Shown here: positions 2,918 to 21,388 of the stretch, piece by piece
How the letters are laid out: every line of letters starts with the position of its first letter
Numbering within the stretch: position 1 is the stretch's first letter
Assembly (NCBI GenBank): GCA_964389015.1
Contig: CAYMCR010000008.1
Span: 312 to 64,311 of the forward strand
DNA: 64,000 bases
Origin: an uncultured Fibrobacteraceae bacterium
GTDB taxonomy: Bacteria > Krumholzibacteriota > Krumholzibacteriia > LZORAL124-64-63
Direction: 5' to 3'
Notes under the pieces: generated by a model
The model's input: only the letters and a program-made list of their open reading frames with translations
What the model was told of the DNA's origin: nothing
The model's database searches: none
Position numbers and translations under genes: made by a program

Positions 2918-3417
2918 TCATCACCTCCGGCAGCAACCGGCGTCAGCATGACCACGGCCTGGGCGGTTACGCACTCGCCCCGCCCCTCGGGTCCGACACC
3001 CTCTCCCCTTGTGGCCTTAACCGAGACCGCGCCCGCCGGTACGCCGAGAGCCCCGGCCAGGGCGGTGCGCATCTCGTCCGCGCGGGGGGCGATGCGCGGC
3101 TGTTCCGTGATCACGGTCGTATCGACGTTGCCGACCCGCCAACCAGCGTCCGCCACCAACCGCGTGGCCCGCACCAGCAGATCCAGGCCCGCGGCGTCCG
3201 CCCAGGCGGGATCGGTATCGGGAAAATGACAACCGATGTCGCCCAGGGCCGCGGCGCCCAGCAGGGCGTCGATCACGGCGTGCGCTACGGCGTCACCGTC
3301 CGAATGACCGACAGGACCGACCGGGCAAGCGGGGAAGTGCACTCCGCCCAAGCGGCAAGCCCTGCCTTCCGACAGGAGATGTCGGTCCCAGCCAAAGCCG
3401 ATCCTCACGACACTCAC
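2914..3417 (-). CDS. ispF: 2-C-methyl-D-erythritol 2,4-cyclodiphosphate synthase
   Basis: 167 aa. IGFGWDRH ... GHSDGDAVAHAVIDALLGAAALGDIG motifs of IspF. Confidence 0.93.
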   Translation of the reverse strand: MSVVRIGFGWDRHLLSEGRACRLGGVHFPACPVGPVGHSDGDAVAHAVIDALLGAAALGDIGCHFPDTDPAWADAAGLDLLVRATRLVADAGWRVGNVDTTVITEQPRIAPRADEMRTALAGALGVPAGAVSVKATRGEGVGPEGRGECVTAQAVVMLTPVAAGGDE

Positions 3418-4334
3418 TCCAGGGAGATGTTGTCCAGTTGAATGACGGTCGTACGTTCCAAGCGACCCAGGAATAATAGCAGACTGTCGATATCGTCCAA
3501 CCGGAATGTCCGCACCGTGACTTCACCCGCCGCGGCGGCGAGATCCATTTCGTAGCGCTGCCATTCACTGTTGATCCGGAAGCTCTCGCTGCACCACACC
3601 GCATCCCGCCGGCTGTCGAAATCGTCCAGACGCACCGAAAGGACGGCCTGTCCGCCGCCGTCGACCCGCGCCTCGAAGACCAGCTTACTGAAACGGCTCC
3701 AGTCGCGGGGCATGCCTTTCAGGAATACGCCCGGCCAGATGTCCTCGGGATCCCCGGTGAAGCTTATCAGACGTCCACCACCGGGACGGTCCACGAAGCG
3801 ACACGATACCTCACGGGCCTCGTTCTCGTTCCACATGAACAGTTCACGATCATCCTCGAAATCGGCCAGCAGGGGAAAGCGTGCGTGGGCCAGGCGTTCA
3901 CCGCGATAATAAGCCGGCATCTCCCGCAGCTGATAGGGCAGGACGGCGAGACCGGCCAGAAAGATCGGAATCGCCCAGCGACGTCCGTATTCTAATCGCA
4001 GCAACAATCCCGCGGCCGACACCACGCCCGCCAGATCCACGCCCGCGTCCTGCAGTCGGGGATGGCGACCGACCAATAGCTGGGGAATTTCGCAGCCCGC
4101 GGCCAATAGGAAGGCCATGGCCGCAGCGGCGCCCAGCCGCCCCTGCAGCGGACCGAAGCGGTGCAATAGCAAAACGAGGCCGAAGGGGAGCCCGAAGTGG
4201 GCGACCACCCCGAACGAGCGCACGATATGAATCCGTTCCAGCTGCCCGGGGATGGGCACCACGAACGGAACCAGCAGCAGCAGGGCGCCCAGCAACCACC
4301 ACCGTGCCTTGACGTGCGCGACCGCCGCGTTCAC
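3414..4334 (-). CDS. VanZ-like membrane protein with C-terminal extracytoplasmic domain of unknown function
   Basis: The N-terminal ~150 aa has four hydrophobic helices and the VanZ-type E..Q...GR.....D...G signature (CEIPQLLVGRHPRLQDAGVDLAG). The C-terminal ~150 aa is not recognisable. 4-nt overlaps on both sides. Confidence 0.55.
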   Translation of the reverse strand: MNAAVAHVKARWWLLGALLLLVPFVVPIPGQLERIHIVRSFGVVAHFGLPFGLVLLLHRFGPLQGRLGAAAAMAFLLAAGCEIPQLLVGRHPRLQDAGVDLAGVVSAAGLLLRLEYGRRWAIPIFLAGLAVLPYQLREMPAYYRGERLAHARFPLLADFEDDRELFMWNENEAREVSCRFVDRPGGGRLISFTGDPEDIWPGVFLKGMPRDWSRFSKLVFEARVDGGGQAVLSVRLDDFDSRRDAVWCSESFRINSEWQRYEMDLAAAAGEVTVRTFRLDDIDSLLLFLGRLERTTVIQLDNISLE

Positions 4335-5704
4335 GAGGTCACCCCGCCGCCGACGCGGCAGATGGAGAACCGGTACTTGCCGTTGGGTTCACGTGGGATG
4401 CTGTCGACGAAACGCAATTCCACCACCAGATCCTCGCCGAGGGCGCTGCGGAAGGACTTGGCGAGCGCGTCCGCGGTCTCCTCGCGCCAGCCCTCGGCGC
4501 GCACCAGGTTCACCACCAGCCGGGAGATCTCCTCCTGGACGACCTGGAGCTGACCGATGCCGCGGTAACGTGTCAGCGTGTTTTCGATCAGGGAGATGCC
4601 GGCCACACGGCTGCCGTCGGCCGCAATGAGAAAATCGGCGACCCGACCGGTGACCGCGCGCAGCAGGGGGTGCGGGCGCCCGCACGTGCAGGGCGCGTCG
4701 TGCATCACGCCGCGGTCTCCCACCTCGTAGCGCAGCATGGGCATGCCGAAGTTGACGAACTCGGTGATCACCAGGCGTCCGTCCTCGCCGGGAGCGCAGG
4801 GCGAACCGTCATCGCGAAGCACCTCGACGGCCACGTGCTCGGCGTTGACATGGAGGCCCTCGTGCCGCTCGCATTCGCAGGCGATGAGGCTCACCTCCTC
4901 GCAGCCATACCTATTGGTGACAGTCCGGGCGAACACGCGCTCGATCACCTCACGCTCGGGCTGGAGCAGCATCATGCTCGTGGCGACGATGCCCGCGGGT
5001 CGGAGCTCGATGCCCATCGCCTCGATCATCTCCGCCAGGAGAAAAATGGAATGGGCGTGACCGTACAACAGACCCGGGCGCATGTGCCGCCAGGCGGCAG
5101 CGAATTCGCGCACCGCCGCCTCGTCCAACCGCATCGTGTCCAGGTAGACGACACGGTCCTTCAGGATGGTGCGCAGGTGATTCCGCCAGCTGACCGGTGC
5201 GGTGGGATTGCCCCAGACCGCCGCGACCGGCTGCCCCAGCCGCCACCCGCTCCAGGTGTCGGCCAGCAGGGCCGCGCCGTTGCGGCGCTGCACGCCACGC
5301 GCGTCGCAGAAGACCAGCAGGGCGGTACCGGTGGAGCCGCCGGTCTTGGCCGGCACCAGTTCGTCACGGCTGTACGCTGCCGAGAGTATCTCGTCCAGGT
5401 TGTCGCGCACTTCGGTCTTGGTCAGCAGGGGCAGGCGCGCCAGGTCGTCGATGGTCCACACCGCAGCGGGATCGAGGCCGGCGTCGGCGAAACGCCGGCG
5501 GTGGAAAGGGGAGGTCGCGACTGCGTGCCGGACGATCCGGTTGAGACGGATCCCGCGCCGCCGTGCCAGGGCGGCGGGAGCGTCGTACTGGTCCAGGGCC
5601 AGGCGGTGGCAGGTGCGCAGGCGCACGCTTCGCTCGTAGAGATCCCAGGCGGGCTCCATGATACGGCCAACGAGCCAGTCCGGCAGGCGTGGCGGCGTGC
5701 TCAT
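4331..5704 (-). CDS. PaaK/CapK-like adenylate-forming enzyme (phenylacetate-CoA ligase / coenzyme F390 synthetase family)
   Basis: 457 aa. TGGSTGTAL P-loop-like AMP-binding motif and the overall PaaK-family length and order. Sits in a polysaccharide gene context. Confidence 0.75.
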   Translation of the reverse strand: MSTPPRLPDWLVGRIMEPAWDLYERSVRLRTCHRLALDQYDAPAALARRRGIRLNRIVRHAVATSPFHRRRFADAGLDPAAVWTIDDLARLPLLTKTEVRDNLDEILSAAYSRDELVPAKTGGSTGTALLVFCDARGVQRRNGAALLADTWSGWRLGQPVAAVWGNPTAPVSWRNHLRTILKDRVVYLDTMRLDEAAVREFAAAWRHMRPGLLYGHAHSIFLLAEMIEAMGIELRPAGIVATSMMLLQPEREVIERVFARTVTNRYGCEEVSLIACECERHEGLHVNAEHVAVEVLRDDGSPCAPGEDGRLVITEFVNFGMPMLRYEVGDRGVMHDAPCTCGRPHPLLRAVTGRVADFLIAADGSRVAGISLIENTLTRYRGIGQLQVVQEEISRLVVNLVRAEGWREETADALAKSFRSALGEDLVVELRFVDSIPREPNGKYRFSICRVGGGVTS

Positions 5705-6843
5705 GTCCGCGGGGTCCAGGTCACCAGCCGCTCACCGCGCAGGAAACGGATCAGCGCATTGCCGGCCGCGCCGTTGAGCAGGCAAAGGTAGAAGGGGAAG
5801 GACAACGGTGGGGGCAGCCGGTGATTTCTAAGCAGCAGGCCGACCAGGGCCAGCGCGTAGAAGACGGCTTGCAGGGCCAAGAGCGCATTCCAGATCGGCG
5901 CCGTCCCGACGAGGATGGCATTGGAGACCAGAGCGCCGAGCTGGAAGATCGGCGCGAGGTACCGCAGCCACTTATGGGAAAAGAGCTGCCAGGAGTAGAA
6001 CCCGTGGCGGAAGGGATTGAGCAGCATCGCCTTGTCCTTCAGGGCGTGCCAGGCGCGCAGGGCCACGCGCGTCCGCATGCGAAACTCGTCCGAGGGGACG
6101 GACAGGCTATCTTCGTAGAGCAGGGCCCGGGGCTGGAAGACGACCCGCAGGTCGCGTTGCACGATGCTGAGCGGCAGGACGAAGTCCGGCTGCTGGTCGT
6201 GCCGCATCGGGGCGTATAGCGAGGCGCGCACGGCGTCGATGCCACCGTCCACACCGACCACCGAGCCGAGCCGGGTCTCCAGTCCGCGCAGCACGTTCTC
6301 GTAACGCATGTAGGCCGAGCAGCCCTCTCCGGTCAGGGAACCGTCGGGTGCCTTGTAGACCATGCGGCCGGTCACATACCCGACCTCGGGATCGGCGAAC
6401 GGCTCGACCAGACGGCGCAGGGCCGACGGGCCGTACAAGGAGTTCGCGTCGGAGAAGACCAGCAGCTCGCCCGAGGCATTCTCCACGGCCAGATTCAGGG
6501 CGGCGGTCTTGCCCGCGCGCGGTTCCTGGCGCAAGAGACGCACCGCGCGGCCCGTCTCGTCGGCCGCCCTCCGGACGATCTCGTCCGTGCCGTCGTCCGA
6601 GGCATCGGAAACGACGATGACCTCGACCCGCTCGGGGGGATAATCCAGCGACAGCTTGTTGCGCAGCGTGCGTTCGATGCAAGCGGCTTCGTTGAAGGCG
6701 GCGATGATGATCGTCACCGTCGGCGTGCCCTCGGCGCCGCGCACGCCACGGTTGCACAGAGCCGCGATCATGGCGCACAAGGCCGGATAACCGGCGTACA
6801 CGTACACCAGCATCAACACGCAGATTGTAAAAACGATCGACAT
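5701..6843 (-). CDS. family 2 glycosyltransferase, membrane-anchored (processive/synthase-like)
   Basis: N-terminal TM helix, then IIIAAFNEA ... VVSDASDDGT (DXD) ... RVALRAW (QxxRW-like). C-terminal TM helices. Confidence 0.85.
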   Translation of the reverse strand: MSIVFTICVLMLVYVYAGYPALCAMIAALCNRGVRGAEGTPTVTIIIAAFNEAACIERTLRNKLSLDYPPERVEVIVVSDASDDGTDEIVRRAADETGRAVRLLRQEPRAGKTAALNLAVENASGELLVFSDANSLYGPSALRRLVEPFADPEVGYVTGRMVYKAPDGSLTGEGCSAYMRYENVLRGLETRLGSVVGVDGGIDAVRASLYAPMRHDQQPDFVLPLSIVQRDLRVVFQPRALLYEDSLSVPSDEFRMRTRVALRAWHALKDKAMLLNPFRHGFYSWQLFSHKWLRYLAPIFQLGALVSNAILVGTAPIWNALLALQAVFYALALVGLLLRNHRLPPPLSFPFYLCLLNGAAGNALIRFLRGERLVTWTPRT

Positions 6844-6858
6844 CCTCGAATCCTATCC

Positions 6859-7956
6859 TCAAACGACTCCGGCCCTGCGCAGCTCCTGTGCATAATGATC
6901 CTGATATTCGTCCACGCAGCTGCTCCAAGTAAAACTCGCCTCGGCGACGGTGCGGGCCCTGAGAGTCAACATCAGTCGGGTCTTGTTCTCCTCCACCAGA
7001 CGCGTCATGGCGCTGGCGAGGGCCGTCACGTTACCAGGCGGTACCAACAAACCCGTCTCGCTGTCACGCACCACTTCCAGGTTTCCGCCGACCGAAGTGG
7101 CCACCACGGCGCAGCCTCGCAACATGTACTCCAATACTGAGTTGCTGAAGCCCTCCGAGTCCGAGCACATCACGCCGACGGCCAGCTTGCCCAGATAGCC
7201 GGGCACGTCGTCGATCCGACCGGCGAACACCGTGCTGCCGGCGATGCCCAGCTCCGCGGCGAGATTCTCATACTCCGATCGCAGCTCGCCGTCCCCGATC
7301 ACGTGGAAAACGACCTCGGGGTGCCGGGTATGCATCTGAGCCGCCGCGCGCAGGAAGAGATCGGTCCTCTTGACGCGCCGGTTGAGATTGCCCACGATCC
7401 CGATCGCAACCTCGGGTTCGAGATGCTCCACGAACTGGTATTCATTCGTATCGACACCATTGTAGACTACCTTAATCCGGGATGGCTCGAGGTGGTCCTT
7501 ACGACACACATGATTCTTCACCGCTTGCGAGTTGGCCATGAACCCCGTCGCTAGCGGATAAGCCCGGCGCATCAGGAATTCCTGTAGCGGCGTTCGCCAG
7601 AAACCCAGGTCCCGGAAGGAGATCAGCCTCACCGGAGCCTTGCCCAGACGGGCGGCCGGCATGGCCAGCAGGGTCGGATCCTGGAAGAACGAGTGGACGA
7701 TGGCCACGCCCTCGGTGGAGATGTGACGGGCGAGACGGCGCACCGACGCCAGGCCCCGGGGCGACATCAGGCGCGACATGTTCAGCTCCAGGCACGGGCA
7801 ATCGACCTCGTCCAGATAATCGCTCGAGGGACGCAAGGTGCAGAGCTGCGGTTGAAAGAGTTCCCTGTCGAGACGGTTGATCAGGCCGACCAGCTGTTTC
7901 TCCGTGCCGCCACGGCCGATACTCTCGATGCAGTATAAAATCTTCTGCGAGGCCAT
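6859..7956 (-). CDS. family 4 (GT-B) glycosyltransferase
   Basis: Start chosen at MASQKILYCIES, preceded by GAGGAGA. C-terminal EGFSNSVLEYMLRGCAVVATSVGGNLEVV is the classic GT4 EX7E region. The upstream 70 codons of the long ORF lack support. Confidence 0.85.
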   Translation of the reverse strand: MASQKILYCIESIGRGGTEKQLVGLINRLDRELFQPQLCTLRPSSDYLDEVDCPCLELNMSRLMSPRGLASVRRLARHISTEGVAIVHSFFQDPTLLAMPAARLGKAPVRLISFRDLGFWRTPLQEFLMRRAYPLATGFMANSQAVKNHVCRKDHLEPSRIKVVYNGVDTNEYQFVEHLEPEVAIGIVGNLNRRVKRTDLFLRAAAQMHTRHPEVVFHVIGDGELRSEYENLAAELGIAGSTVFAGRIDDVPGYLGKLAVGVMCSDSEGFSNSVLEYMLRGCAVVATSVGGNLEVVRDSETGLLVPPGNVTALASAMTRLVEENKTRLMLTLRARTVAEASFTWSSCVDEYQDHYAQELRRAGVV

Positions 7957-8128
7957 TCTCCTCTCACGTCGACGTCCAGGCGCAGTCGGCGCGCGAACAG
8001 ACGGGTCAGTCTGCCACATGGCGACGAGGAGCGGAAGTTGTTTCCCGCTCTCGACAAAACGTACCGGACAGGTTAACTCTGAAAGCGCCGTATACAGCGG
8101 TGAACCACCAAGAAGGATCCACGACGTC

Positions 8129-9013
8129 ATGAACGACACGCCCCTGGTCTCCGTCATCACCGCCACCTACAACATGGGTCGTTACGTGGCCGACACGGTC
8201 GACTCCATCCTGGCGCAGACCCACCCGGCCGTGGAGGTCGTCGTTGTCGACGACGGCTCCACCGACGATACGCCCGCGGTGCTCGCCGGCTATGCCGATG
8301 ACCCGCGCGTGAAAACCGTGCACCAGGACAATGCGGGCCAGACCGTGGCCAAGAATCGGGGCCTCCGGGAAGCGACCGGGGAGTTCGTCGGCTTCTGCGA
8401 TGCGGACGACCTGTGGCGGCCGGACAAGCTGGCGCGGCAGTTGCCGCACTTCGCGGACGAACGCATCGGCGTGGTCTACGGCAATTTCCAATTCATCGAC
8501 GGCGCGGGACAGCCCATCGAGACCGATCGCCCGGCCACTTACAGCGGTCGCATCACGGGCGAACTGCTGGTGGACAACTTCGTCCACTTCCCCACCGCCC
8601 TGGTCAGACGCAGCATCATCGAGCGGGCGGGCGGCTTCGACGAGTCGCTGTCCATGGGCATCGACTTCGACCTCTGGCTGCGCATCTCCGTGGATCACGA
8701 ATTCCTCTACCTGCCCGACATTCTGGTCGATTATCGCATCTGGGCAGGTCAGATGTCCCATCGTACCGGCGAGCGTCTCGACAACGCCTTCAAGCTGATG
8801 CGCCGGTTCCTCGCGAACCACCCGGGCTGCGTAACCGGCGCGCAGAAGCGGAAGGCCTGGGCCCACACCTATGTGTCGCGGGGTCTCTGGAAAACGCGTC
8901 AGGGTGAGCGGGGCGCGGGCACGATCGATCTTGTTCGCGCCTGCGCGCAACGACCCTGGGATCGCCGTCTCTGGACCTCAATCACCAAGCTCTTGCTGGG
9001 ACGCCAGGTATGA
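8129..9013 (+). CDS. family 2 glycosyltransferase
   Basis: VSVITATYNMGRYVADTVDSILAQT ... VVVVDDGSTDDT. Start chosen at ATG 8129 after AGAAGGA. Confidence 0.85.
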   Translation: MNDTPLVSVITATYNMGRYVADTVDSILAQTHPAVEVVVVDDGSTDDTPAVLAGYADDPRVKTVHQDNAGQTVAKNRGLREATGEFVGFCDADDLWRPDKLARQLPHFADERIGVVYGNFQFIDGAGQPIETDRPATYSGRITGELLVDNFVHFPTALVRRSIIERAGGFDESLSMGIDFDLWLRISVDHEFLYLPDILVDYRIWAGQMSHRTGERLDNAFKLMRRFLANHPGCVTGAQKRKAWAHTYVSRGLWKTRQGERGAGTIDLVRACAQRPWDRRLWTSITKLLLGRQV

Positions 9014-9107: not shown

Positions 9108-10481
9108 ATGGCTCGTTCGAGAATTTCTATAACCTGTCTACTCACTCTGTTTGCGATTTGCGGCACGGCCACGGCCGGAACCCTGCAATCCCTCTCGCAC
9201 GATCCCGTCGATTTCATCTACAACGAGGATCGCGTCGACTGTTACTGGTCGTTCAGCGCCGGCACGGACTCCGTACAGGTCGATTTCCACGACGGCACCG
9301 TCGTCACCGTCATGCCCGACCAGACACCGTTCCGGCACATCTACGCCGACGCCGGACGTTACGACCTCACCTTCACAATCTGGGAGGACGGTGACTCCGA
9401 ACTGCACGAAGAGAGCAACTTCGTGTTCGTCCGTCAACGTCCCCTCCCCGACGGCAAATTCATGTTCGTGCACCATTCCACCGGGCGGAACATGATCACC
9501 GACGCCGGCGTGCGCAGCTTGCTGGACCTGCACAACGAACAGTTCGAAACGTCCATCGAGTTCTGGGATCACGACTACCACAGCGGCAACTCGGTTACCG
9601 GCATCATCGTGCCGGACAGCACCGTATACCACGACTGGTCCTATGGCGTGGAGGCCAACGACATCCAGCCCGGGGGATATTACACGATCTTTTGCGGGAG
9701 CAGCGCCTTCCGTGACTCGCTGTTCAGCCGCCACGACGTGATCGTCCTGAAGAACGACCACAAGACCGGCGACATCATCCACGACGGCCAGCTGGCCGCC
9801 TACAAGTACTGGTATATGCTGATCCGCGACGAGATAGACCAGTACCCGGATAAGCGCTTCGTCCTGGTCTCCGGACCGCCCCGTCGTCCCGAAGACATCA
9901 CCAACGGCGAAGCAGACCGGGCTCGCGAGTTCTACGACTGGCTGCAGAGTCCCGAGTTCATGAACGGACATGCGAACATCTCGTTCTTCGATCTGTTCGA
10001 CTACCTGGCCTACCCCGACGATCCGAGCGACCCGCAACGCAACATGCTGCGTTCGCAGTATCGCCGCCCCTACGGCATGACCGACAGCCACCCCAACGAA
10101 TACGCCAACAACGTGATCGGCCCCGTCTTCGCCGGCATGTTGATCCGTGTCGTCGATCCCTCCTGGGTCAGCATAGTGTCGGACGTCCAACTGCCCACCG
10201 CGACGCCGCGGCTCCATCCGAACCACCCCAATCCATTCAACCCCAGCACCTCGATCGCCTATGACCTGGAACGACCGGGCCTGACCGATCTGAGCATTTT
10301 CGACTTGTCGGGACGTCTGATCCGCAGCATCCTGACACCGACGATGCAGCAACCGGGCAGTTACACCCTGCGCTGGGACGGCACGGACGCTACGGGCCGT
10401 ACCCTGCCGTCCGGCGTGTACCTGTACCGCCTCTCCAGCGGGCGCACCGCGGTGAGCCGCCGCATGGTCCTGATCCGCTGA
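9108..10481 (+). CDS. secreted protein with T9SS/Por-type C-terminal sorting domain (FlgD-Ig-like); N-terminal catalytic domain unknown (HHS-G motif family)
   Basis: Signal peptide MARSRISITCLLTLFAICGTATA. The C-terminus NPFNPSTSIAYDL ... WDGTDATGRTLPSGVYLYRL ... MVLIR matches Por_Secre_tail architecture. Paralogous to the 20447..21388 product. Confidence 0.7.
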   Translation: MARSRISITCLLTLFAICGTATAGTLQSLSHDPVDFIYNEDRVDCYWSFSAGTDSVQVDFHDGTVVTVMPDQTPFRHIYADAGRYDLTFTIWEDGDSELHEESNFVFVRQRPLPDGKFMFVHHSTGRNMITDAGVRSLLDLHNEQFETSIEFWDHDYHSGNSVTGIIVPDSTVYHDWSYGVEANDIQPGGYYTIFCGSSAFRDSLFSRHDVIVLKNDHKTGDIIHDGQLAAYKYWYMLIRDEIDQYPDKRFVLVSGPPRRPEDITNGEADRAREFYDWLQSPEFMNGHANISFFDLFDYLAYPDDPSDPQRNMLRSQYRRPYGMTDSHPNEYANNVIGPVFAGMLIRVVDPSWVSIVSDVQLPTATPRLHPNHPNPFNPSTSIAYDLERPGLTDLSIFDLSGRLIRSILTPTMQQPGSYTLRWDGTDATGRTLPSGVYLYRLSSGRTAVSRRMVLIR

Positions 10482-14130: not shown

Positions 14131-15474
14131 GTGGTGAATCTCCGTCATCTCCTGTGGGGCAGGCTGATAATGCCTCTCGGTGGGCTTGCGACACGCCAAC
14201 CTGTGGCCAAGTACCTCGCATACTATCAGGAAAGTCAATACTGGCCTCGGGAAATAATCGCAGCCGAACGTGATCGCGCACTCCACGAGACGATCAAGGT
14301 CGCCTATCAAGAGGTTCCCTTCTATCGCGACCTCTATCGCGAACATGGCGTACATCCCCGTGACATCCTGTGTGCCGACGATATGCACAAGCTGCCCGTC
14401 GTGACGAAGCAGATGTTGTCGGCCGCTTATCCCGACCGCTGTCTCCGTCACACGGGTTTCCCCACCGAGGAGCAAGCTACGAGCGGATCGACGGGACAGC
14501 CCTTCCGCAGCATGATCGACACGGATTCGCAGGCACGAGCGCGTGCCTTGATGTTCCTCAGGGCGATGATGAGCGGCTACAAGCCCGGCGACGCCATGGT
14601 GCAGACAGGCATATCCGGAAACCGGCATGGGCTCAAGGGCTGGAAAGACCGACTACTGGCCATCACATATGTGCCGACGGTGGATCTGAGCGACTCTGCC
14701 CTGGACAAGGCCCTGCATTCGATGGTCAGTCGGCGAGCACGTTATCTCATGGGCACCGCACAGAGCATGCACCTCTTGGCGATGAGGGCGATCGAGGTCG
14801 GGACCCGCCATCGGCTCGCCGGTGCGGTCTCGTGGGGAAGTCATCTGCTGCCTCAACACCGGTACGCGATCCAGGAGGCGTTCGGCTGTCGCACGATCGA
14901 CACGTACGGCGTTTCGGAGGGTATGCAGGTTGCGTCGCAATGCGGCGAAGACCATGGAGAATATCACCTGTTCGCCCTCCACGTGTTCACCGAGTTCTGC
15001 CACGACGGACACCCCGTCCCCACAGGTGAAACGGGCGAGGTGCTGCTGACCCGACTCAACCCCGGAGTTATGCCGTTCATTCGCTACCAGGTAGGTGACC
15101 TCGGCCGAGCTTCGACCCGCAAGACCTGTCCCTGTGAACGGACATTGCCGATGATGGCGAGCCTCGTCGGTCGAACGGCCGATATCATCCTCACGCCCCG
15201 GGGCAACAGGCTCACGGTGCACTTCTTCAGCCATCTCTTCGGACAGATGTCTGAAATACGGAGCTTCCAGGTCCATCAGACGACAAGCGACCACCTGCAC
15301 CTCCTGATTGCCACAGACGGCCCGGCCGATGCTCGCGCCTCCGACACCATTCGTGATCTTATTAAAAACGAGGGAGATCCGGACTTGCAAATCACAATAG
15401 AGTGGGTGGACGAAATTCAACTGGAAATGACGGGCAAGCAGAAATACATTGTATCAACAGTGGAACTTCAATGA
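14131..15474 (+). CDS. PaaK/CapK-like adenylate-forming enzyme (second copy)
   Basis: 447 aa. TSGSTGQPF motif. Same family architecture as 4331..5704, but the two sequences are clearly diverged, so this is not a recent duplicate. GTG start preceded by GGAGG. Confidence 0.75.
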   Translation: MVNLRHLLWGRLIMPLGGLATRQPVAKYLAYYQESQYWPREIIAAERDRALHETIKVAYQEVPFYRDLYREHGVHPRDILCADDMHKLPVVTKQMLSAAYPDRCLRHTGFPTEEQATSGSTGQPFRSMIDTDSQARARALMFLRAMMSGYKPGDAMVQTGISGNRHGLKGWKDRLLAITYVPTVDLSDSALDKALHSMVSRRARYLMGTAQSMHLLAMRAIEVGTRHRLAGAVSWGSHLLPQHRYAIQEAFGCRTIDTYGVSEGMQVASQCGEDHGEYHLFALHVFTEFCHDGHPVPTGETGEVLLTRLNPGVMPFIRYQVGDLGRASTRKTCPCERTLPMMASLVGRTADIILTPRGNRLTVHFFSHLFGQMSEIRSFQVHQTTSDHLHLLIATDGPADARASDTIRDLIKNEGDPDLQITIEWVDEIQLEMTGKQKYIVSTVELQ

Positions 15475-15588: not shown

Positions 15589-16701
15589 TTGAGGGTCAGA
15601 GGATGGATCGGCTTCACCGTGGTCTTGATCACAGCTACGACTGTTATAGCACAGCCGATCGTTCAATCCGTGACAGGTGATTTCACGGATGGCACCACCA
15701 TCGCGATCGAAGGCATGGGGTTCGGCACGAAACCGACCCAGCAACCCTATCTATGGGACACACTGTCCAATCAGTCCGGATACGTGGATCGTGAGCTCCA
15801 GCACGGCGACATCATCCCCTCCACCCAGGGCGATTGGGGACTTTCGCCTTGCCCGGACTGCCCTTGGGATGTGAATCAACCCAACTGGACCTCCCCGATG
15901 AGGTACTGGGACCAGAATCACCGTGTCCCGGGTCGGCCGTTCTACCGGGTCGAGCGGAAGGGCTATTTCCGCATGTCCGACTGGGGCGACACCTTACCGG
16001 ACCGGGTCTACTTGAATTGGTGGTTCCGCACTTCGGCTCCCGATCTCACCGTCGGTTCCAACAAGTTCGTGCGGCTCTGGGCGGATACAGAAAGACCCGA
16101 GGGCTCGGTCTCGTGGACGGGGATGCACCTCACCTACACCGCGGACGCGAACCACGACGGCGTCAACGACGGCGGTGAAGGTCACGTGACCACCTGGGGG
16201 AACTGGGGCGGTTCCTCTGGCAGCTGGCACAACCTCGAAATGGTCTACGATGGGCAAGGCGATATCCAGCACGGCTACGGCACGTTGCGCATCTACCGCG
16301 ACGGCCGCCTGGTCCATGCCGTGAACGACGCCTTCGGCGAGCTCCCCTGGAACCGTCTCTACGTGTTCGGGTTCGATGCCTCGGTCGGTGAGCCCTTCGC
16401 GGGGGAGACCTTCGATTTCTCCGACATCTATATCGATACGAGCCTGGCTCGCGTCGTCGTGGGCAATGCCGCGCAGTACGCGAACGTGACACACCAGGAA
16501 GTGCAGATCCCCCAGAGCTGGAATACGGACTCCATCAACGTGACTGTCAACTCGGGTTCCTTCGCACCCAGCGAGGATTTATGGTTGTTCGTCTTCGATG
16601 TGGATGGTGAAGTGAACCCCGTAGGCCACTCCGTCACCACGCCCGATATCCCCGATGACGGCCCGCCCGGCATGCCGGGTCAACCGGTCCGGAATATATA
16701 G
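15589..16701 (+). CDS. secreted protein, possible polysaccharide-acting enzyme (concanavalin-like/lyase-like fold guessed); likely TTG start
   Basis: The in-frame TTG at 15589 is preceded by GGAGG with an 8-nt spacer and yields the signal peptide MRVRGWIGFTVVLITATTVIAQP. The long ORF from 15538 lacks an RBS. No T9SS tail. No close family recognised by eye. Confidence 0.5.
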   Translation: MRVRGWIGFTVVLITATTVIAQPIVQSVTGDFTDGTTIAIEGMGFGTKPTQQPYLWDTLSNQSGYVDRELQHGDIIPSTQGDWGLSPCPDCPWDVNQPNWTSPMRYWDQNHRVPGRPFYRVERKGYFRMSDWGDTLPDRVYLNWWFRTSAPDLTVGSNKFVRLWADTERPEGSVSWTGMHLTYTADANHDGVNDGGEGHVTTWGNWGGSSGSWHNLEMVYDGQGDIQHGYGTLRIYRDGRLVHAVNDAFGELPWNRLYVFGFDASVGEPFAGETFDFSDIYIDTSLARVVVGNAAQYANVTHQEVQIPQSWNTDSINVTVNSGSFAPSEDLWLFVFDVDGEVNPVGHSVTTPDIPDDGPPGMPGQPVRNI

Positions 16702-16708
16702 AGTCGGA

Positions 16709-17692
16709 TCAGAGAGCCGCGACTCTGTCGATGAGCTCCTCAAACCTGGGCTTCCACTCGCTTAGCAAGCGCTCTCGCAGTTCCTCGACTGCCTGGGCTC
16801 TCTGCGTGCGTTCCTCGAGAGCCTGGCACAAGGTGGCGGCAATCGTTTCCGGATCGAGAGAAGTGAACAGCACACCGCTGTTGAAGTACTCGCGCAGGGC
16901 ATGCGTATCGGCTAGGACCAGGGGTTTGCCGAGAGCCACGGCTTCGTAGGCGCTGCACAGCAGCGTGTGGTCCTGACGCGTGAGAGCCAGCACGACATCC
17001 ACTGACTTGAGCAACGACTGGAAGTCCGTCTCGTGCAGGTAGCCTGTGAGTCGCACATTGTCGGGCACACTGGACAACAGGGCCGGACTCAGGCGGGAAT
17101 CGTCGCCGGTGATATGGAGAGTCACCCCGTCCGGCAGGTATTTCGCCGCGTCGAGAACCGCTTCCACCGGTTCATCGGCACTGAATGAATTCACCCAGGC
17201 GATGTTCGAGCGGCCGCTCAGGGAGACGGCATCTCCCGCCGTCAGGGTCGGCATCATATCCTGAAGAACGTACGGTCTGCCACCCCAGCCCTCGACGATC
17301 CCGGCAAGATGCCCGTTCGTCACGATCGTCAGATCCGCCCTGGCCACGGTCATGCGACTCAGGGCGTGAAAGAGCCTGTACTTCAGCGAACGGCTCTCCA
17401 TCGTAGGGAACTTGAAGTTCGAGTGCCGATCGATGACGAGCCTGTAGCCGAACAACGGTTTCAGCCAGCAGACCAGGCCGGCCAGTGCCATCGACGGGTT
17501 CTGAACGACGAGGCGTCGCGGCCGTTTCGAGAGCAGAACGAGCAGAGTCCGCAGCGAAAGCAAGAGAACCTTCAGACTGTAGATCCTCACCGGCCTGAAA
17601 CGGTAGAGAGGGATCTCGAGCGCCTTGGCGAGCGTCTCCGTACGCCTTTGCTGCTCCCAAGTTATCCAAATCGTGTCGGCCAGACAGCTCAT
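16709..17692 (-). CDS. GT4-like glycosyltransferase (GT-B fold, retaining-type C-terminal domain)
   Basis: Start taken at MSCLADTIWITWEQQ. The upstream 55 codons of the ORF (MITIYTCATTV...) have no coding-like character. The C-terminal half matches the GT-B nucleotide-binding domain pattern (VLALTRQDHTLLCSAYEAVALGKPLVLADT). Confidence 0.6.
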   Translation of the reverse strand: MSCLADTIWITWEQQRRTETLAKALEIPLYRFRPVRIYSLKVLLLSLRTLLVLLSKRPRRLVVQNPSMALAGLVCWLKPLFGYRLVIDRHSNFKFPTMESRSLKYRLFHALSRMTVARADLTIVTNGHLAGIVEGWGGRPYVLQDMMPTLTAGDAVSLSGRSNIAWVNSFSADEPVEAVLDAAKYLPDGVTLHITGDDSRLSPALLSSVPDNVRLTGYLHETDFQSLLKSVDVVLALTRQDHTLLCSAYEAVALGKPLVLADTHALREYFNSGVLFTSLDPETIAATLCQALEERTQRAQAVEELRERLLSEWKPRFEELIDRVAAL

Positions 17693-17729
17693 CGTTGACA
17701 CCCGGTCGAGGTAAATGATGGAGACGTGT

Positions 17730-18848
17730 TCAGGACTCGACGGCCAGTGACAGATCCTCCAGCCAATATGCCGTGTCGTCACGATGGCACACCAGCATCC
17801 GGCTCTCCTGGTCAGGATCCGGGGAACGGTGGTAGCGCAGGTATATATGGTGATCATCCACGCCCAGCACCTCGATCTTACCGGTGGCGTGGCTCATGCA
17901 GAAGCGGACCCGTCGCGACAGACCCGAGCAGCGGCGCCGAGCAGCATCGAAAATCTGCCAGCTCTCCACCAGAGGAACCTTGTAGGGCTCGTTGCCGGAA
18001 GTCGGCCGGCCCTGGAACAGGTAGTACTGGGGTGCACCGAGTACGGTCATGGTCTCGAAGAGCTCGGCCAGGACGCCGGCGTCATCGTTCACGCCGCGTA
18101 CCAGAGGACACTGGTTGATCACGTGGGTGCCCGTTTCCCGCAAAGCGCGGATCGCCTCGCGGGCCGGCTCGGTCAGCTCGCGAGGATGGTCGAAATGGGC
18201 CATGAGATAAACGGCGGTACCCCCGGCGACCGTCCGTTTGAATCCCTCCAGCAAACCGGGATCGTCGAAGATGCGATAGGGATTGAAAGCAATGCTCTTG
18301 GTGCCCACACGTATGATACGGACGTTCGCCATCGCTGCGAAACGCTCGATGATCTGCAGCAGACGATCCGTCGAGAGAACCAGCGGGTCGCCGCCGGAGA
18401 GCAGGACATCGGTGATCTTCGGATGAGCCTCGACATACTCGTAGGCCGTGGACAGGTCCCGCGCCGCCTCCTCGTTCTCATCCATGAACAGCCGCTTGCG
18501 GAAGCAAAAGCGGCAGTATGCAGCGCACGTGGACGCCACGAGCACCAGGGCCGTGTCGCCATACTTGTGTTGGACGCCCCGGACCACGGTATTGGCTGCC
18601 TCGTTGCTGGCGTCGAGTCGGCCCCAGTCGTCGAGTTCCGCGGCATCGGGCACGATCAAGCGACGGATGGGGTCGTCGGGATCTTCCCAGTCGATCAGGT
18701 CCAGGTAATAATCGTTGGCGCGAAAAGCATATTTCTCCGCCACCTTTTCGAGCACGGGGGCCAGATCCGGCGGCAGGTCCGGGATCTGGGACGGCGCGCG
18801 CAGGTAGCGAACCCTCGGAGGAGTAGGTATAGGCTCGGGAACAGACAT
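17730..18848 (-). CDS. KamA-family radical SAM aminomutase (lysine 2,3-aminomutase / EpmB-like)
   Basis: 372 aa. CAAYCRFCFRKR (CxxxCxxC radical-SAM cluster in the KamA-type context) and the PLP-region similarity typical of KamA/EpmB. Confidence 0.8.
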   Translation of the reverse strand: MSVPEPIPTPPRVRYLRAPSQIPDLPPDLAPVLEKVAEKYAFRANDYYLDLIDWEDPDDPIRRLIVPDAAELDDWGRLDASNEAANTVVRGVQHKYGDTALVLVASTCAAYCRFCFRKRLFMDENEEAARDLSTAYEYVEAHPKITDVLLSGGDPLVLSTDRLLQIIERFAAMANVRIIRVGTKSIAFNPYRIFDDPGLLEGFKRTVAGGTAVYLMAHFDHPRELTEPAREAIRALRETGTHVINQCPLVRGVNDDAGVLAELFETMTVLGAPQYYLFQGRPTSGNEPYKVPLVESWQIFDAARRRCSGLSRRVRFCMSHATGKIEVLGVDDHHIYLRYHRSPDPDQESRMLVCHRDDTAYWLEDLSLAVES

Positions 18849-19030
18849 CCGATCGGTCCTTCCTTTATCGCGACCTCCCGCGTAATCCTCAAGTAAGTGG
18901 AGTGTTACTATGCCGGAGGGTCCATCGGAGCAAGTCCCTTTACATGCTGGGACTTACTCTGAATTCACGTATGATGGGTCTTAACAGTATGGCACAGATA
19001 TACCTATCCAGCAAGCCCTCCAGCTAACCA

Positions 19031-20413
19031 TCATTCCGGCGTCACCGCCTCCAATTGCGACACCAGATAGCGCGAGCCCCGGCGCATTTCCTTCGCGATG
19101 TAGACCAGATTGAAGGCCAGACCCGCGCCGAACCACCAGTAAGGCTCGTAGAGATCCATGCCGAACATGCCGAGCGCCAGCCTGATCACGATGAAACCGC
19201 TGGCGGCGATCGAGACCCCCCGCATGAAACGCAGGTCGCTCGACCAGGACTCGCATTCACGCCGGAGCTTGCCAGGCGGTTTTCGTTTGCGGGCCGCCCT
19301 GGCCAGGGCGCGCATCTGCGCCTCGAAACTGCGCTGGGCGGATCGATAGGCACGCATCAGGGAAACGAGCAGGAACACGAAAACGACCACCCCCTGCACG
19401 CCGAGGTTCGTAGCCACCTCGAGGTACAGGTTGTGGGTGTCCTGCTTGCGCCCGAACTTGCGCATGCGTACGGCGGGAAACGAGGCGATGCCAACGCCGC
19501 CCGGATTGGCGAGGAAGATAGCGGTCGCGTCCTGGAGGATCTCGATCCGCTTCTCCTTGGAATGCCCCTCCGCCTCCTGACCGCCGATGCTCTTGAACCT
19601 CTCCACATACTGTTCGGGGAGCAGGGGTATCGCCAGGCTGATCAGCAGCACGGCGATGACGGCGCTACGAAACTTCTTTCGCGTTTGGGACCACCAGAAC
19701 AGGATCAGCACCGCGAAGGCCACATAGCCGGTCCGGGAGCCCGAGAACAGCACGCAGGTGGATGCTGTGCCCACCAGCGGCAGCAGCGGCAGACGATAGA
19801 GCCACCTCTTGATCGCCGGGAACAGGAAGAAGCAGAACGGCAACGTCCCCATGGCGACGCCGGCCAGGCTGTTGGGATGGGCATAGATGGGCACAGCGCC
19901 GTGCAATCGCATCACGCCCTGGTTCTGCCAGACCAAGCCGCCGGAAATGAGCCCGCGCGTGGATTCCTGCGTGACGTAGAAACAGGCGAAGAGAAATGCA
20001 CCCATGAACAACCGCATGGCCCGCGGTGACCGGATCAGCACCACCATGAAGAACGTGAGCATTGCGAATTTGATGACCCGATCGATGAAGATGGAATTGG
20101 CCAGCTCCTTGTCGGCGGCGAAGGGAATCTGGATTATCATCACGGCGAACAGCAGCGCGATGCCGATCAGCACGTTCCTGGCGGTCTTGAGCGTACCGAA
20201 CTTCACGGGACTGGCGGAGATCAGGAAAGCGCAGGCTACCGCCAGCACCAGCCCGAACACGAACTCGATGCGCAGGGTCTTGAAGATCTCCCGGCGCGCG
20301 CCCCACTGCATGTACCTGGCCACGACGAAGATCAGGAAGGTCGCGGTGACGAACAGCGGCGCCTCCCAGTAGCGTGGGAGGCGCAAGCGGCCGGTTTTGA
20401 TACGCTGCATCAT
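19031..20413 (-). CDS. O-antigen ligase/polymerase (Wzy_C) family membrane protein
   Basis: 460 aa with about 10-12 TM segments, a periplasmic loop carrying the DTHNLYLEVATNLG motif (the H-N-x-Y-L hallmark of Wzy_C/WaaL), and a basic cytoplasmic tail. Confidence 0.8.
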   Translation of the reverse strand: MMQRIKTGRLRLPRYWEAPLFVTATFLIFVVARYMQWGARREIFKTLRIEFVFGLVLAVACAFLISASPVKFGTLKTARNVLIGIALLFAVMIIQIPFAADKELANSIFIDRVIKFAMLTFFMVVLIRSPRAMRLFMGAFLFACFYVTQESTRGLISGGLVWQNQGVMRLHGAVPIYAHPNSLAGVAMGTLPFCFFLFPAIKRWLYRLPLLPLVGTASTCVLFSGSRTGYVAFAVLILFWWSQTRKKFRSAVIAVLLISLAIPLLPEQYVERFKSIGGQEAEGHSKEKRIEILQDATAIFLANPGGVGIASFPAVRMRKFGRKQDTHNLYLEVATNLGVQGVVVFVFLLVSLMRAYRSAQRSFEAQMRALARAARKRKPPGKLRRECESWSSDLRFMRGVSIAASGFIVIRLALGMFGMDLYEPYWWFGAGLAFNLVYIAKEMRRGSRYLVSQLEAVTPE

Positions 20414-20446
20414 GCCGACGCCAGCATCCTCGTGAGGGTGGTCAGG

Positions 20447-21388
20447 CTATTTCATCCCCGCTACCGCGGCGTTGATGAAGGGTACGAAGGCCGCCGCGGC
20501 CTTTGCGTTGCCCTGCCGGCTGGGATGGCTGTCGCGTCCGCCGCCGGTCGGGTAGGCCGACCAGTTCCCCTCATCGCCGGTCAGGATGTCGTAGTAATCG
20601 AAAACCGCCACGTTGGGCAGGTCGTAAGTTGCGAGCCAGCCGTTCTCATGATCGACCAGCCAGGTATTGAACTCGCGGGCGAAATCGGCCGCGGTCGTCC
20701 CGGAACCGAAGGCGCCCTTCAGGCGGTCCTTGAGGCCCTGCTTCGGCTCGGCGCGCGGCGGCGCGGTGAAGGCCACGAAGAGCACGCCGGGTCGCGCCCG
20801 GAAATGGGGCAGCAACGCGCGGTAGGCGGCCTTGGCGTTGGCCACGGTCAACTCCTCGGCGTCGGGGTTGCCAGGCTCGGCGCCGGGGCCCGTGAAATCG
20901 TTGTTCGGGTAGCAGGACTTGAAGGCGACGATGTCGTTGGTCGTGCCGCCGGTATACTGCCGATCCTGGTGGTCGGTGGCCAGGATGGCGTCCATGTGCT
21001 CGGCGAACTTGCGTCGCCAGTGGCGGATGTCCGTGTCCGCGCCGAGGACCGACTCGTAGCTCAGTTCGCTCACGTCGTAGCCGTTCGCCGTGAGCAGGGT
21101 TCGCAGCCCGCCCCCGTTGTGATGGCTGTCGTAGATGCAGCGCTGGCCGGAGCCGGGCTCGCCGCCGGCGCGCTTGCCGTGGTCCGCCATGAGCTGCCCA
21201 CCGCAGGAATGGTGGATGAAGAGCAGGCGCTGGGGGGTCTCGGGCGCCGCGTCCGATGTCCGTTGTGTCTCTTGCATGGCGGCATCGCCTCCGTTCTCGT
21301 CGCCGGCCGTGCCGCAGGCGGCGATCGGCAGGAGCAGGGCGAGAGCCAGTGTCGTCCTCGTCGCACGCAACCTGTTCGTGTCACGCAT
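20447..21388 (-). CDS. lipoprotein, paralog of the N-terminal domain of the 9108..10481 product (unknown hydrolase-like family)
   Basis: Start at MRDTNRL, preceded by GGAGGAGG. Lipobox LLLPIAAC. Shares FIHHS.G, VLFVAFTAPPR / FVLVSGPPRR, AREFNTWL / AREFYDWL and VFDYYDIL / FFDLFDYL blocks with 9108..10481. Confidence 0.65.
   Translation of the reverse strand: MRDTNRLRATRTTLALALLLPIAACGTAGDENGGDAAMQETQRTSDAAPETPQRLLFIHHSCGGQLMADHGKRAGGEPGSGQRCIYDSHHNGGGLRTLLTANGYDVSELSYESVLGADTDIRHWRRKFAEHMDAILATDHQDRQYTGGTTNDIVAFKSCYPNNDFTGPGAEPGNPDAEELTVANAKAAYRALLPHFRARPGVLFVAFTAPPRAEPKQGLKDRLKGAFGSGTTAADFAREFNTWLVDHENGWLATYDLPNVAVFDYYDILTGDEGNWSAYPTGGGRDSHPSRQGNAKAAAAFVPFINAAVAGMK

What the first reader, a model, noticed from the sequence alone, without database searches (positions are those of the whole stretch)
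3414..21388. Polysaccharide locus combining two PaaK/CapK-like adenylating enzymes with a KamA-family aminomutase
Within an 18-kb block of GT2/GT4 transferases, an acetyltransferase and a Wzy-like polymerase, there are two diverged PaaK-family ligases (4331..5704 and 14131..15474) and a lysine-2,3-aminomutase-like radical SAM enzyme (17730..18848). CapK-like ligases are recurrent but functionally unassigned members of capsule and EPS loci. A KamA-type enzyme there is unusual. Together they suggest that a beta-amino acid such as beta-lysine is made in situ, adenylated and amide-linked to a sugar or lipid carrier, giving an aminoacylated surface polymer. No Wzx flippase, priming transferase or Wza/Wzc exporter is in the window, so the locus may continue outside it or use another route.
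Basis: inference. Interest (0 to 1): 0.75.

Follow-up and report, generated by a model that had tools for sequence, protein, structure and literature searches.

The report
Polysaccharide locus with stray aminomutase gene
This is an ordinary surface-polysaccharide gene cluster carrying two CapK-type ligases, and the lysine-aminomutase-like gene inside it is most likely a stray insertion found only in this lineage, not part of a beta-lysine decoration pathway.

Summary
There are two PaaK-superfamily CapK-like ligases (27% identical to each other), a KamA-family radical SAM protein, GT2/GT4 transferases, a hexapeptide acetyltransferase and a Wzy polymerase. No Wzx, priming transferase or Wza/Wzc was found in the window.

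The proposed link between the aminomutase and the ligases does not hold up:
- In four related copies with the same or nearly the same gene order (L086, L088, L173, L174) and one looser relative (L087), the KamA-like gene is absent. In L086, L173 and L174, GT4 directly abuts or overlaps Wzy.
- In 165 loci encoding relatives of the KamA-like protein (47-72% identity, many phyla), none has a CapK-like ligase or Wzy nearby. The three closest relatives with annotated contexts sit beside a GFO/IDH/MocA oxidoreductase, near pdxS/pdxT.
- The protein scores below every NCBIfam equivalog cutoff (lysine, EpmB, glutamate and arginine aminomutases).
- KamA Asp293, which binds the lysine epsilon-amino group, is an invariant Arg here. 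Beta-lysine is therefore unlikely.

The CapK-like ligases are a conserved part of the locus. V. cholerae VpsH, a PaaK/CapK-like protein, was shown genetically in 2026 to be required for glycine amidation of a lipid-linked uronic acid. Amide decoration by the ligases is therefore plausible without any aminomutase.

The parts
3414..4334 (-). Membrane protein, weak VanZ / CBM_11 similarity; left edge of the locus
   Evidence: Pfam hits are weak. Three TM-like segments. A gene with a weak CBM_11 hit sits at the same position in L086, though tblastn found no match there because the locus ends inside that gene.
4331..5704 (-). CapK1: CapK-like adenylate-forming ligase of the PaaK superfamily
   Evidence: NCBIfam PaaK/F390-type hits lie far below cutoffs. 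PDB PaaK hits. The ortholog in L086 carries CapK_C and is 77% identical.
5701..6843 (-). GT2 glycosyltransferase with TM segments
   Evidence: Pfam Glycos_transf_2. TM scan. 72% identical in L086.
6859..7956 (-). GT4 glycosyltransferase (GT4a)
   Evidence: Pfam Glycos_transf_1 and Glyco_transf_4. Gene call of 365 aa.
8129..9013 (+). GT2 glycosyltransferase (GT2b)
   Evidence: Pfam Glycos_transf_2. Gene call of 294 aa.
9108..10481 (+). Secreted protein with a C-terminal FlgD_ig / T9SS-type sorting tail
   Evidence: Pfam FlgD_ig and NCBIfam Por_Secre_tail. Conserved in all syntenic loci.
10516..11079 (+). Hexapeptide-repeat O-acetyltransferase (WbbJ/WcaF-like)
   Evidence: Pfam Hexapep and NCBIfam WbbJ/WcaF-type hits.
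11066..12829 (+). 587-aa protein: N-terminal SAM methyltransferase domain plus about 400 aa of unknown function; a variable gene of the locus
   Evidence: Pfam Methyltransf_11/25. An APH-like kinase protein takes its place in L173 and L174.
12873..14066 (-). GT4 glycosyltransferase (GT4b)
   Evidence: Pfam. Gene call.
14131..15474 (+). CapK2: second CapK-like adenylate-forming ligase, 27% identical to CapK1
   Evidence: NCBIfam. PDB PaaK at E 1e-21. Precomputed CapK_C hit. Pairwise comparison.
15589..16701 (+). Secreted Trp-rich protein of unknown function; follows CapK2 in the window and in four of five related loci
   Evidence: Signal-peptide-like N-terminus. No Pfam, NCBIfam or PDB homology. 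Directly after CapK2 in L086, L173 and L174, one gene further in L087, and two genes away in L088.
16709..17692 (-). GT4 glycosyltransferase (GT4c); starts 37 nt after the KamA-like stop codon
   Evidence: Pfam. Gene call of 327 aa. In L086, L173 and L174 its ortholog abuts or overlaps Wzy directly.
17730..18848 (-). KamA-family radical SAM / PLP aminomutase-like gene. It is a lineage-specific insertion between Wzy and GT4c, and belongs to an uncharacterised subfamily with Arg in place of the lysine-binding Asp293.
   Evidence: family and residues. (context).
18849..19030 (-). 182-nt AT-richer leader upstream of the KamA-like gene, with an 11-bp hairpin at about 18928-18959
   Evidence: Sequence. 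Fold z-score -1.45. No Rfam match. The last ~45 nt resemble the leaders of homologs in L089 and L091.
19031..20413 (-). Wzy-type polymerase / O-antigen-ligase family membrane protein
   Evidence: Pfam Wzy_C and NCBIfam PEP_O_lig_1, 72 bits and below cutoff. Eight TM-like segments.
20447..21388 (-).
   Evidence: Pfam Lipase_GDSL_2 at E 0.002. 74% identical in L086 and L088.
21546..23249 (+). Secreted Big_5 (bacterial Ig-like) repeat protein, syntenic with the locus
   Evidence: Pfam Big_5. Present in L086 and L088.

Best explanation
The block 3414-23249 is a Wzy-dependent heteropolysaccharide locus. It is conserved at this chromosomal site, between ispF and tyrS, in an uncultured lineage whose nearest named TyrRS relatives are Candidatus Krumholzibacteria.

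The two CapK-like ligases are core parts of this locus. By analogy with V. cholerae VpsH, they most likely use ATP to activate a carboxylate as an acyl-adenylate and form an amide bond. The likeliest substrates are a uronic-acid carboxylate on the lipid-linked repeat unit and an ordinary amino acid or amine. Having two diverged ligases suggests two different decorations.

The KamA-like gene is not part of that pathway. It belongs to a widespread, highly conserved, normally stand-alone subfamily of radical SAM/PLP aminomutase-like enzymes. The active-site residues point away from lysine. In this one lineage the gene has been relocated between Wzy and GT4c, possibly together with its own proximal leader.

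Shown: gene identities, synteny, absence of the KamA-like gene from related loci, absence of CapK/Wzy genes from KamA-like loci, and the residue substitutions.
Inferred: the amide-forming chemistry of the ligases, the non-lysine substrate, and the lack of functional coupling.
For: - Synteny without the KamA-like gene. L086 has the same gene order at 50-77% amino-acid identity, and GT4c abuts Wzy. L173 and L174 share that order except that an APH-like kinase protein replaces the methyltransferase fusion and L174 adds a Wzx; there GT4c overlaps Wzy. L088 lies at the same aroA-aroC-tyrS site (tyrS 86% identical), has a rearranged centre, and has no KamA-like gene. L087 has two adjacent CapK_C genes, Wzy and Wzx, and no KamA-like gene.
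- 0 of 165 KamA-like loci have CapK or Wzy within up to 10 kb. The only specific recurrent neighbour is an aminotransferase, in 8-9 loci.
- The three closest relatives with annotated contexts (66-72% identity) share a different context: pdxS, pdxT and a GFO/IDH/MocA oxidoreductase on one side of the KamA-like gene, and type II secretion or sulfatase genes on the other.
- Residues: R134 of KamA is kept as R117, K337 aligns with K324, and D293 is an invariant R281, whereas KamA and EpmB both keep Asp there. D330 (Glu in EpmB) is lost.
- The protein scores below all aminomutase equivalog cutoffs.
- VpsH precedent for a PaaK/CapK-like protein required for glycine amidation of BPP-linked GulNAcA (PMC13463779).
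Against: - The KamA-like gene sits on the same strand inside the operon, 37 nt upstream of GT4c. It is therefore probably co-transcribed with glycan genes.
- The centre of the locus is its variable part (50-62% identity against 68-77% at the flanks). This is where serotype-specific decoration genes are typically gained.
- Absence from relatives is therefore also what a strain-specific decoration gene would show.
- I could not determine whether this genome has a second KamA-like copy at the usual site.
VpsH chemistry itself has not been shown in vitro.
- No uronic-acid or amino-sugar precursor genes lie in the locus to anchor the proposed chemistry.
Confidence: 0.62

Rival explanations
1. Strain-specific recruitment. 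In this lineage the KamA-like enzyme was captured into the variable centre of the locus. It makes a beta-amino acid that one of the CapK-like ligases attaches to the polymer. Given Arg281, that product is more likely beta-glutamate or another acidic or neutral beta-amino acid than beta-lysine.
For: Same strand, 37 nt upstream of GT4c and 182 nt downstream of Wzy. The gene is intact and keeps every residue invariant in its subfamily. The centre of the locus is its most variable part. CapK-type ligases plausibly handle amino acids.
Against: 0 of 165 relatives are in such a context. All five related CapK loci work without it. The subfamily's 50-72% identity across phyla and its stand-alone habit suggest a conserved role unrelated to glycans. 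The proximal leader looks carried over from the gene's usual context.
Confidence: 0.15
2. The CapK-like ligases do not amidate sugars. They activate an organic or fatty acid, as a CoA thioester or directly, to O- or N-acylate the polymer or build a lipid anchor. The KamA-like gene is again unrelated.
For: The best NCBIfam matches are CoA-ligase families (DVU_1553 family, PaaK, FlxY). The PDB neighbours are all CoA ligases or aryl-acid-activating enzymes. No uronic-acid synthesis genes lie in the locus.
Against: All those matches are far below family cutoffs. No acyl carrier protein, acyltransferase partner or CoA-handling gene lies in the locus, apart from a sugar-type hexapeptide acetyltransferase. 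The one genetically studied PaaK/CapK-like protein in a glycan locus, VpsH, adds an amino acid.
Confidence: 0.2

Closest known systems
V. cholerae VpsH, a PaaK/CapK-like protein of the VPS locus (PMC13463779)
   Same: A PaaK-superfamily, CapK-like protein encoded in a Wzx/Wzy-type exopolysaccharide locus together with GT4 transferases and a hexapeptide-type acetyltransferase. It is genetically required for an amino-acid (glycine) amide on a lipid-linked uronic acid.
   Different: The window has two diverged ligases rather than one. No uronic-acid synthesis genes, Wzx or priming transferase are in the window. The substrates here are unknown.
Lysine 2,3-aminomutase KamA (C. subterminale, PDB 2A5H) and E. 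coli EpmB
   Same: The CxxxCxxC radical SAM motif, the alpha-carboxylate-binding Arg (R134, aligned with R117) and a candidate PLP lysine (K337, aligned with K324). 35% identity to the KamA fragment and 31% to EpmB, with E 1e-43 to 2A5H.
   Different: Asp293 is an invariant Arg, and Asp330 (Glu in EpmB) is lost. Zn-site Cys268 is Asp, and the C-terminal region differs. Scores are below all equivalog cutoffs. No efp/epmA, ablB or lysine-fermentation genes lie nearby.
Glutamate 2,3-aminomutase (TIGR04368; C. difficile enzyme of Ruzicka and Frey, from my own knowledge)
   Same: A KamA-family enzyme in which the two lysine-binding Asp residues are replaced, one by a basic residue. This is consistent with an acidic side chain as substrate.
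   Different: Only 177 bits against a cutoff of 650. The replacement pattern recalled for that enzyme (Lys/Asn) is not the one seen here (Arg, then Cys/Met). The substrate of the window's subfamily is untested.
True phenylacetate-CoA ligase PaaK (PDB 2Y27, 2Y4N, 2Y4O)
   Same: The same fold and adenylation motifs. These are the best solved-structure matches for CapK2, and among the best for CapK1, whose top match is the Bacteroides-type entry 4R1L.
   Different: 70-119 bits against PaaK equivalog cutoffs of 646-700. No paa genes lie in any of six loci. The context is always glycan biosynthesis.

Membership tests
KamA family radical SAM aminomutases (TIGR00238) | CxxxCxxC [4Fe-4S]/SAM motif | tested here: met
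   C108-x3-C112-x2-C115 aligns with C125/C129/C132 of 2A5H and is invariant in the subfamily.
KamA family radical SAM aminomutases (TIGR00238) | Family HMM score at or above the curated cutoff | tested here: not met
   187.9 bits against a cutoff of 199.2. This is a near miss, consistent with a diverged subfamily.
KamA family radical SAM aminomutases (TIGR00238) | PLP-binding lysine (K337 of 2A5H) | tested here: inconclusive
   An invariant GK (K324) lies at the expected distance after the SGL/SGY motif. However, the HMMER alignment to 2A5H stops at residue 310, so the equivalence is inferred.
Lysine 2,3-aminomutase (KamA/AblA, TIGR03820) and EpmB (TIGR03821) | Acidic residues that bind the lysine epsilon-amino group (Asp293 and Asp330 of 2A5H) | tested here: not met
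   Position 293 is an invariant Arg281, while KamA and EpmB have Asp. Position 330 (Glu in EpmB) aligns with Cys317/Met318.
Lysine 2,3-aminomutase (KamA/AblA, TIGR03820) and EpmB (TIGR03821) | Equivalog HMM cutoffs | tested here: not met
   AblA 177 bits against 525. EpmB 169 against 369. Also Glu 2,3-aminomutase 177 against 650, Arg 2,3-aminomutase 166 against 600, and AblA_like_2 211 against 396.
EpmB (EF-P beta-lysylation) | Genomic association with efp and epmA | tested here: not met
   No efp or epmA was found in the window. None appears among recurrent neighbours in 165 loci. In E. coli, epmB is adjacent to efp.
CapK-like ligases (Pfam PF27533 CapK_C; PaaK superfamily) | CapK_C domain hit | tested here: met
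   Precomputed Pfam hits are on record for CapK2 and for CapK1 orthologs. The local Pfam copy lacks this model, so my own scan found nothing.
CapK-like ligases (Pfam PF27533 CapK_C; PaaK superfamily) | Adenylate-forming core motifs and PaaK fold | tested here: met
   Alignment to 2Y27 and 4R1L covers the P-loop-like SGSTGQP, YGVSE and RYQVGD motifs. CapK1 matches 4R1L and 2Y4O.
True phenylacetate-CoA ligase PaaK | Equivalog HMM cutoff and paa operon context | tested here: not met
   70-119 bits against cutoffs of 646-700. No paa genes in the window or in L086-L088, L173 and L174.
VpsH-type uronic-acid amino-acid ligase | Orthology to VpsH and amino-acid amidation of a lipid-linked uronic acid | not testable with these tools
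The activity needs biochemistry or glycan analysis. Only a literature analogy is available.
Wzx/Wzy-dependent polysaccharide pathway | Wzy polymerase | tested here: met
   Pfam Wzy_C at 66.5 bits, above the cutoff of 31.7. Eight TM-like segments.
Wzx/Wzy-dependent polysaccharide pathway | Wzx flippase, priming phosphoglycosyltransferase and Wza/Wzc export genes in the locus | tested here: not met
   None was found among the ORFs of the 64-kb window that were scanned. Related loci L087 and L174 do carry a Polysacc_synt Wzx.

The most novel reading that the evidence does not exclude
The KamA-like protein represents an uncharacterised, widespread clade of radical SAM/PLP 2,3-aminomutases. An invariant Arg replaces the lysine-binding Asp, implying a new substrate specificity, possibly an acidic amino acid. 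In this one lineage the enzyme would have been captured into an exopolysaccharide operon, so that a beta-amino acid is attached to the polymer by a CapK/VpsH-type ligase. That would be the first glycan decorated with a beta-amino acid made in situ.
Probability: 0.12. Interest if true: 0.7.

Novelty: new member of a known kind. Interest (0 to 1): 0.27.

Why it matters
The comparative evidence argues against that, which saves an expensive heterologous-expression and LC-MS effort aimed at beta-lysine.

Two things remain useful:
- A lineage-conserved locus with two diverged CapK-type ligases is a good test bed for the newly proposed VpsH-type amino-acid amidation chemistry.
- A large, highly conserved KamA subfamily with an Arg-for-Asp active-site swap has an unknown substrate and is worth characterising in its own right.

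Tried and rejected
- Riboswitch hunt upstream of the KamA-like gene. A lysine, Na+ or other riboswitch would have hinted at the substrate, but there was no Rfam match even at E <= 5. The leader folds no better than shuffles (z -1.45).
- Flanking repeats or a target-site duplication around the insertion. Only short, chance-level repeats were found. The only junction remnant shared with L086 is a trivial TGATGG.
- Promoter and terminator scan of 16600-20600. The counts were at shuffle level.
- Conserved partner of the KamA-like subfamily. Clustering neighbours in 82 and then 165 loci gave only generic ABC ATPases and an aminotransferase in 8-9 loci.
- Direct comparison with VpsH. No supplement text is held and the sequence is in no accessible collection.
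- Literature on KamA-family specificity residues and on other characterised CapK/F390-like enzymes in glycan loci. Nothing beyond VpsH turned up.
- Closest relative by TyrRS (89% identity, L175). Its contig ends inside the locus, so it could not show how recent the insertion is.
- Remote homology of the conserved secreted ~370-aa protein next to CapK2. Nothing significant in the PDB.
- EpmB and true-PaaK readings. Both were rejected on HMM cutoffs and genomic context.

Full report
**1. What is there**

The window is a GC-rich (about 64%) metagenomic contig. The identical KamA-like protein occurs on 18 public contigs, all with the same context (JGI 3300009128 and ENA SUTE22-1). The nearest named TyrRS relatives are Candidatus Krumholzibacteria at 72-73% identity.

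I called genes from codon-position GC and annotated them with Pfam and NCBIfam. The gene order is:
- cysS, ddl and ispF (423-3417, minus strand)
- a VanZ-like membrane protein
- CapK1
- GT2
- GT4
- GT2
- a secreted FlgD_ig-tailed protein
- a hexapeptide acetyltransferase
- a methyltransferase fusion (587 aa)
- GT4
- CapK2
- a secreted unknown protein
- GT4
- the KamA-like gene
- Wzy
- an unknown protein
- a Big_5 protein
- two small unknown proteins
- tyrS, aroC, aroA and a MatE transporter

**2. The two ligases**

CapK1 and CapK2 match PaaK/F390-type NCBIfam models at only 70-119 bits, against PaaK cutoffs of 646-700. They match solved PaaK structures at E 1e-13 to 1e-21. CapK2, and the CapK1 orthologs in L086 and L173, carry precomputed hits to the newer Pfam CapK_C domain. 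The two are 27% identical to each other and retain the adenylation motifs. No paa genes occur near them or near their relatives. They are CapK-like ligases, not phenylacetate-CoA ligases.

**3. The KamA-like protein**

It has the CxxxCxxC motif, and the alpha-carboxylate-binding Arg of 2A5H (R134) aligns with R117. It falls below every curated cutoff:

| NCBIfam model | Score (bits) | Cutoff (bits) |
|---|---|---|
| KamA family (TIGR00238) | 188 | 199 |
| AblA_like_2 | 211 | 396 |
| Glutamate 2,3-aminomutase | 177 | 650 |
| Lysine 2,3-aminomutase AblA | 177 | 525 |
| EpmB | 169 | 369 |
| Arginine 2,3-aminomutase | 166 | 600 |

Its subfamily is large and unusually conserved. Relatives at 47-72% identity occur in Eisenbacteria, Planctomycetota, Vicinamibacterales, Gemmatimonadota, Nitrospinota, Rhodocyclaceae and others.

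I aligned the subfamily with the 2A5H KamA fragment and with E. coli EpmB fetched from MG1655. Both lysine-using enzymes have Asp at KamA position 293, and the subfamily has an invariant Arg (R281). The second epsilon-amino ligand, Asp330 (Glu in EpmB), corresponds to Cys317/Met318. A candidate PLP lysine (K324) is invariant.

From my own knowledge of the Frey laboratory's work, these two Asp residues hold the lysine epsilon-ammonium group, and they are replaced in glutamate 2,3-aminomutase. Lysine, and therefore beta-lysine, is an unlikely substrate and product. The true substrate is unknown. An acidic or neutral amino acid is my inference.

**4. Is the KamA-like gene part of the glycan pathway? 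Test from the ligase side**

CapK2's closest relatives lie in clearly related loci.
- L086 has the same gene order at 50-77% amino-acid identity, but GT4c abuts Wzy directly.
- L173 and L174 share that order, except that an APH-like kinase protein replaces the methyltransferase fusion and L174 adds a Wzx. There the GT4c and Wzy genes overlap.
- L088 sits at the same chromosomal site (MatE, aroA, aroC, tyrS; tyrS 86% identical). Its centre is rearranged, and it has no KamA-like gene.
- L087 has two adjacent CapK_C genes, Wzy, Wzx, an AsnB-like amidotransferase and an Asp/Glu racemase, and again no KamA-like gene.

A tblastn search with the KamA-like protein finds nothing in L086-L088. L173 and L174 were checked only through their gene calls and Pfam annotation. 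The two-ligase glycan locus is therefore a conserved feature of the lineage, and the KamA-like gene is an insertion specific to the window's population.

**5. Test from the aminomutase side**

I collected 82 loci of relatives from reference genomes (plus two earlier look-ups) and 83 from metagenomes and close relatives. Each had up to 10 kb of flank per side.
- None of the 165 has a CapK-like ligase or a Wzy.
- Seven loci show even a weak glycosyltransferase match: four in the first set and three in the second.
- Clustering all neighbouring ORFs gave no common partner. The only specific one is a class I/II aminotransferase directly downstream in 8-9 loci.
- The three closest relatives with annotated contexts (66-72% identity) share a different, mutually conserved context. 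On one side lie pdxS, pdxT and a divergently transcribed GFO/IDH/MocA oxidoreductase (with pdxR and lplA in two of the three). On the other lie type II secretion or sulfatase genes.
- The last ~45 nt of the window's leader resemble those of two of these relatives. This suggests the gene moved with its proximal upstream sequence.
- No riboswitch, terminator, repeat or mobile-element signature marks the insertion.

**6. What the ligases probably do**

A 2026 study of V. cholerae VPS assembly examined VpsH, previously annotated as phenylacetate-CoA-ligase-like and described as partly similar to CapK-like proteins. VpsH is required for adding glycine to the GulNAcA carboxylate of the bactoprenyl-linked disaccharide. 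The chemistry (adenylate or acyl-phosphate) is still untested (PMC13463779).

This is the best available model for CapK1 and CapK2: ATP-dependent carboxylate activation followed by amide formation on a lipid-linked intermediate. It needs no aminomutase. I could not test orthology with VpsH. No uronic-acid or amino-sugar precursor genes lie in the locus, so this step is inference.

**7. Verdict**

- Amide-type decoration by CapK-like ligases is plausible.
- In-situ beta-lysine synthesis by the KamA-like enzyme is not supported.

A residual possibility of about 0.12-0.15 remains that the gene was recruited as a strain-specific decoration gene. It lies on the same strand, 37 nt upstream of GT4c, in the variable centre of the locus. 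Absence from relatives is also what such a gene would show.

Novelty: this is a new member of a known kind, a Wzy-type locus with CapK/VpsH-like ligases. The uncharacterised Arg281 KamA subfamily is a separate lead.

Noticed in passing
window 17730-18848; loci L004-L085, L089-L091, L093-L172: The KamA-like protein belongs to a large subfamily that is 47-72% identical across many phyla. It has an invariant Arg where KamA and EpmB have the lysine-binding Asp293, and a distinctive C-terminal motif (IYLRYHRA..DP.DE.R). It is usually a stand-alone gene, and its substrate is unknown.
   Followed up: partly
L089 4067-7796, L090 1247-4657, L091 3498-7819: In the three closest KamA-like relatives with annotated contexts, the gene lies divergent from a GFO/IDH/MocA oxidoreductase and within 4 kb of the PLP synthase genes pdxS and pdxT (with pdxR in two of them). 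Proximity of a PLP enzyme to PLP synthesis may be a coincidence.
   Followed up: no
e.g. L035 11179-12540, L027 12053-13366: In 8-9 of 165 loci (for example the Planctomycetota MAGs L027 and L035), a class I/II aminotransferase-like gene follows the KamA-like gene on the same strand at a median distance of about 190 nt. This is the only specific recurrent neighbour.
   Followed up: partly
window 15589-16701; L086 11395-12513; L173 11532-12629; L174 11390-12529: A secreted, Trp-rich ~370-aa protein with a signal peptide and a weak IPT/TIG-like N-terminal domain follows CapK2 in the window and in four of five related loci. It has no Pfam, NCBIfam or PDB homology, and may be an extracellular glycan-processing protein.
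   Followed up: partly
window 9108-10481, 49470-53339, 56406-58694: Several secreted proteins end in a FlgD_ig / Por_Secre_tail-like C-terminal domain: one protein inside the glycan locus, an S8 subtilase of 1289 aa, and a C1 papain-like protease. This suggests a T9SS-like sorting signal typical of FCB-group bacteria.
   Followed up: no
window 11066-12829 versus L173 7463-8848 and L174 7291-8724: The 587-aa methyltransferase fusion protein of the window is replaced, at the same position in related loci, by an APH-like (aminoglycoside phosphotransferase fold) kinase protein. The locus therefore swaps decoration genes between lineages.
   Followed up: no
L174 3653-5218; L087 17935-19401: Related loci carry a Polysacc_synt-type Wzx flippase. 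In L174 it sits between GT2b and the FlgD_ig protein. That slot (about 9013-9108) is empty in the window, in L086 and in L173, so the flippase must be encoded elsewhere in those genomes.
   Followed up: partly
L087 19445-21335: A more distant two-CapK locus is flanked by an asparagine-synthase-like amidotransferase (GATase_7) and an Asp/Glu racemase. This fits uronamide and/or D-amino-acid decoration in that polysaccharide.
   Followed up: no
window 18849-19030 (minus strand): The 182-nt leader of the KamA-like gene is AT-richer than its surroundings and contains an 11-bp hairpin at about 18928-18959. Its last ~45 nt (GGGAGGTCG...GGAAGG) resemble the leaders of homologs in L089 and L091. It matches no Rfam family.
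   Followed up: partly
L175 (contig end at 12930): The contig of the closest long-contig relative (TyrRS 89% identical) ends just inside the glycan locus. This suggests strain-level heterogeneity that breaks assemblies at this locus.
   Followed up: no
window 1-283: Three tRNA genes lie on the minus strand at the left edge of the window, upstream of cysS.
   Followed up: no
window 38110-41823: A DUF4254 protein is followed by a 1010-aa protein whose only recognisable domain is a C-terminal GlnD-type nucleotidyltransferase region. It is unrelated to the finding.
   Followed up: no
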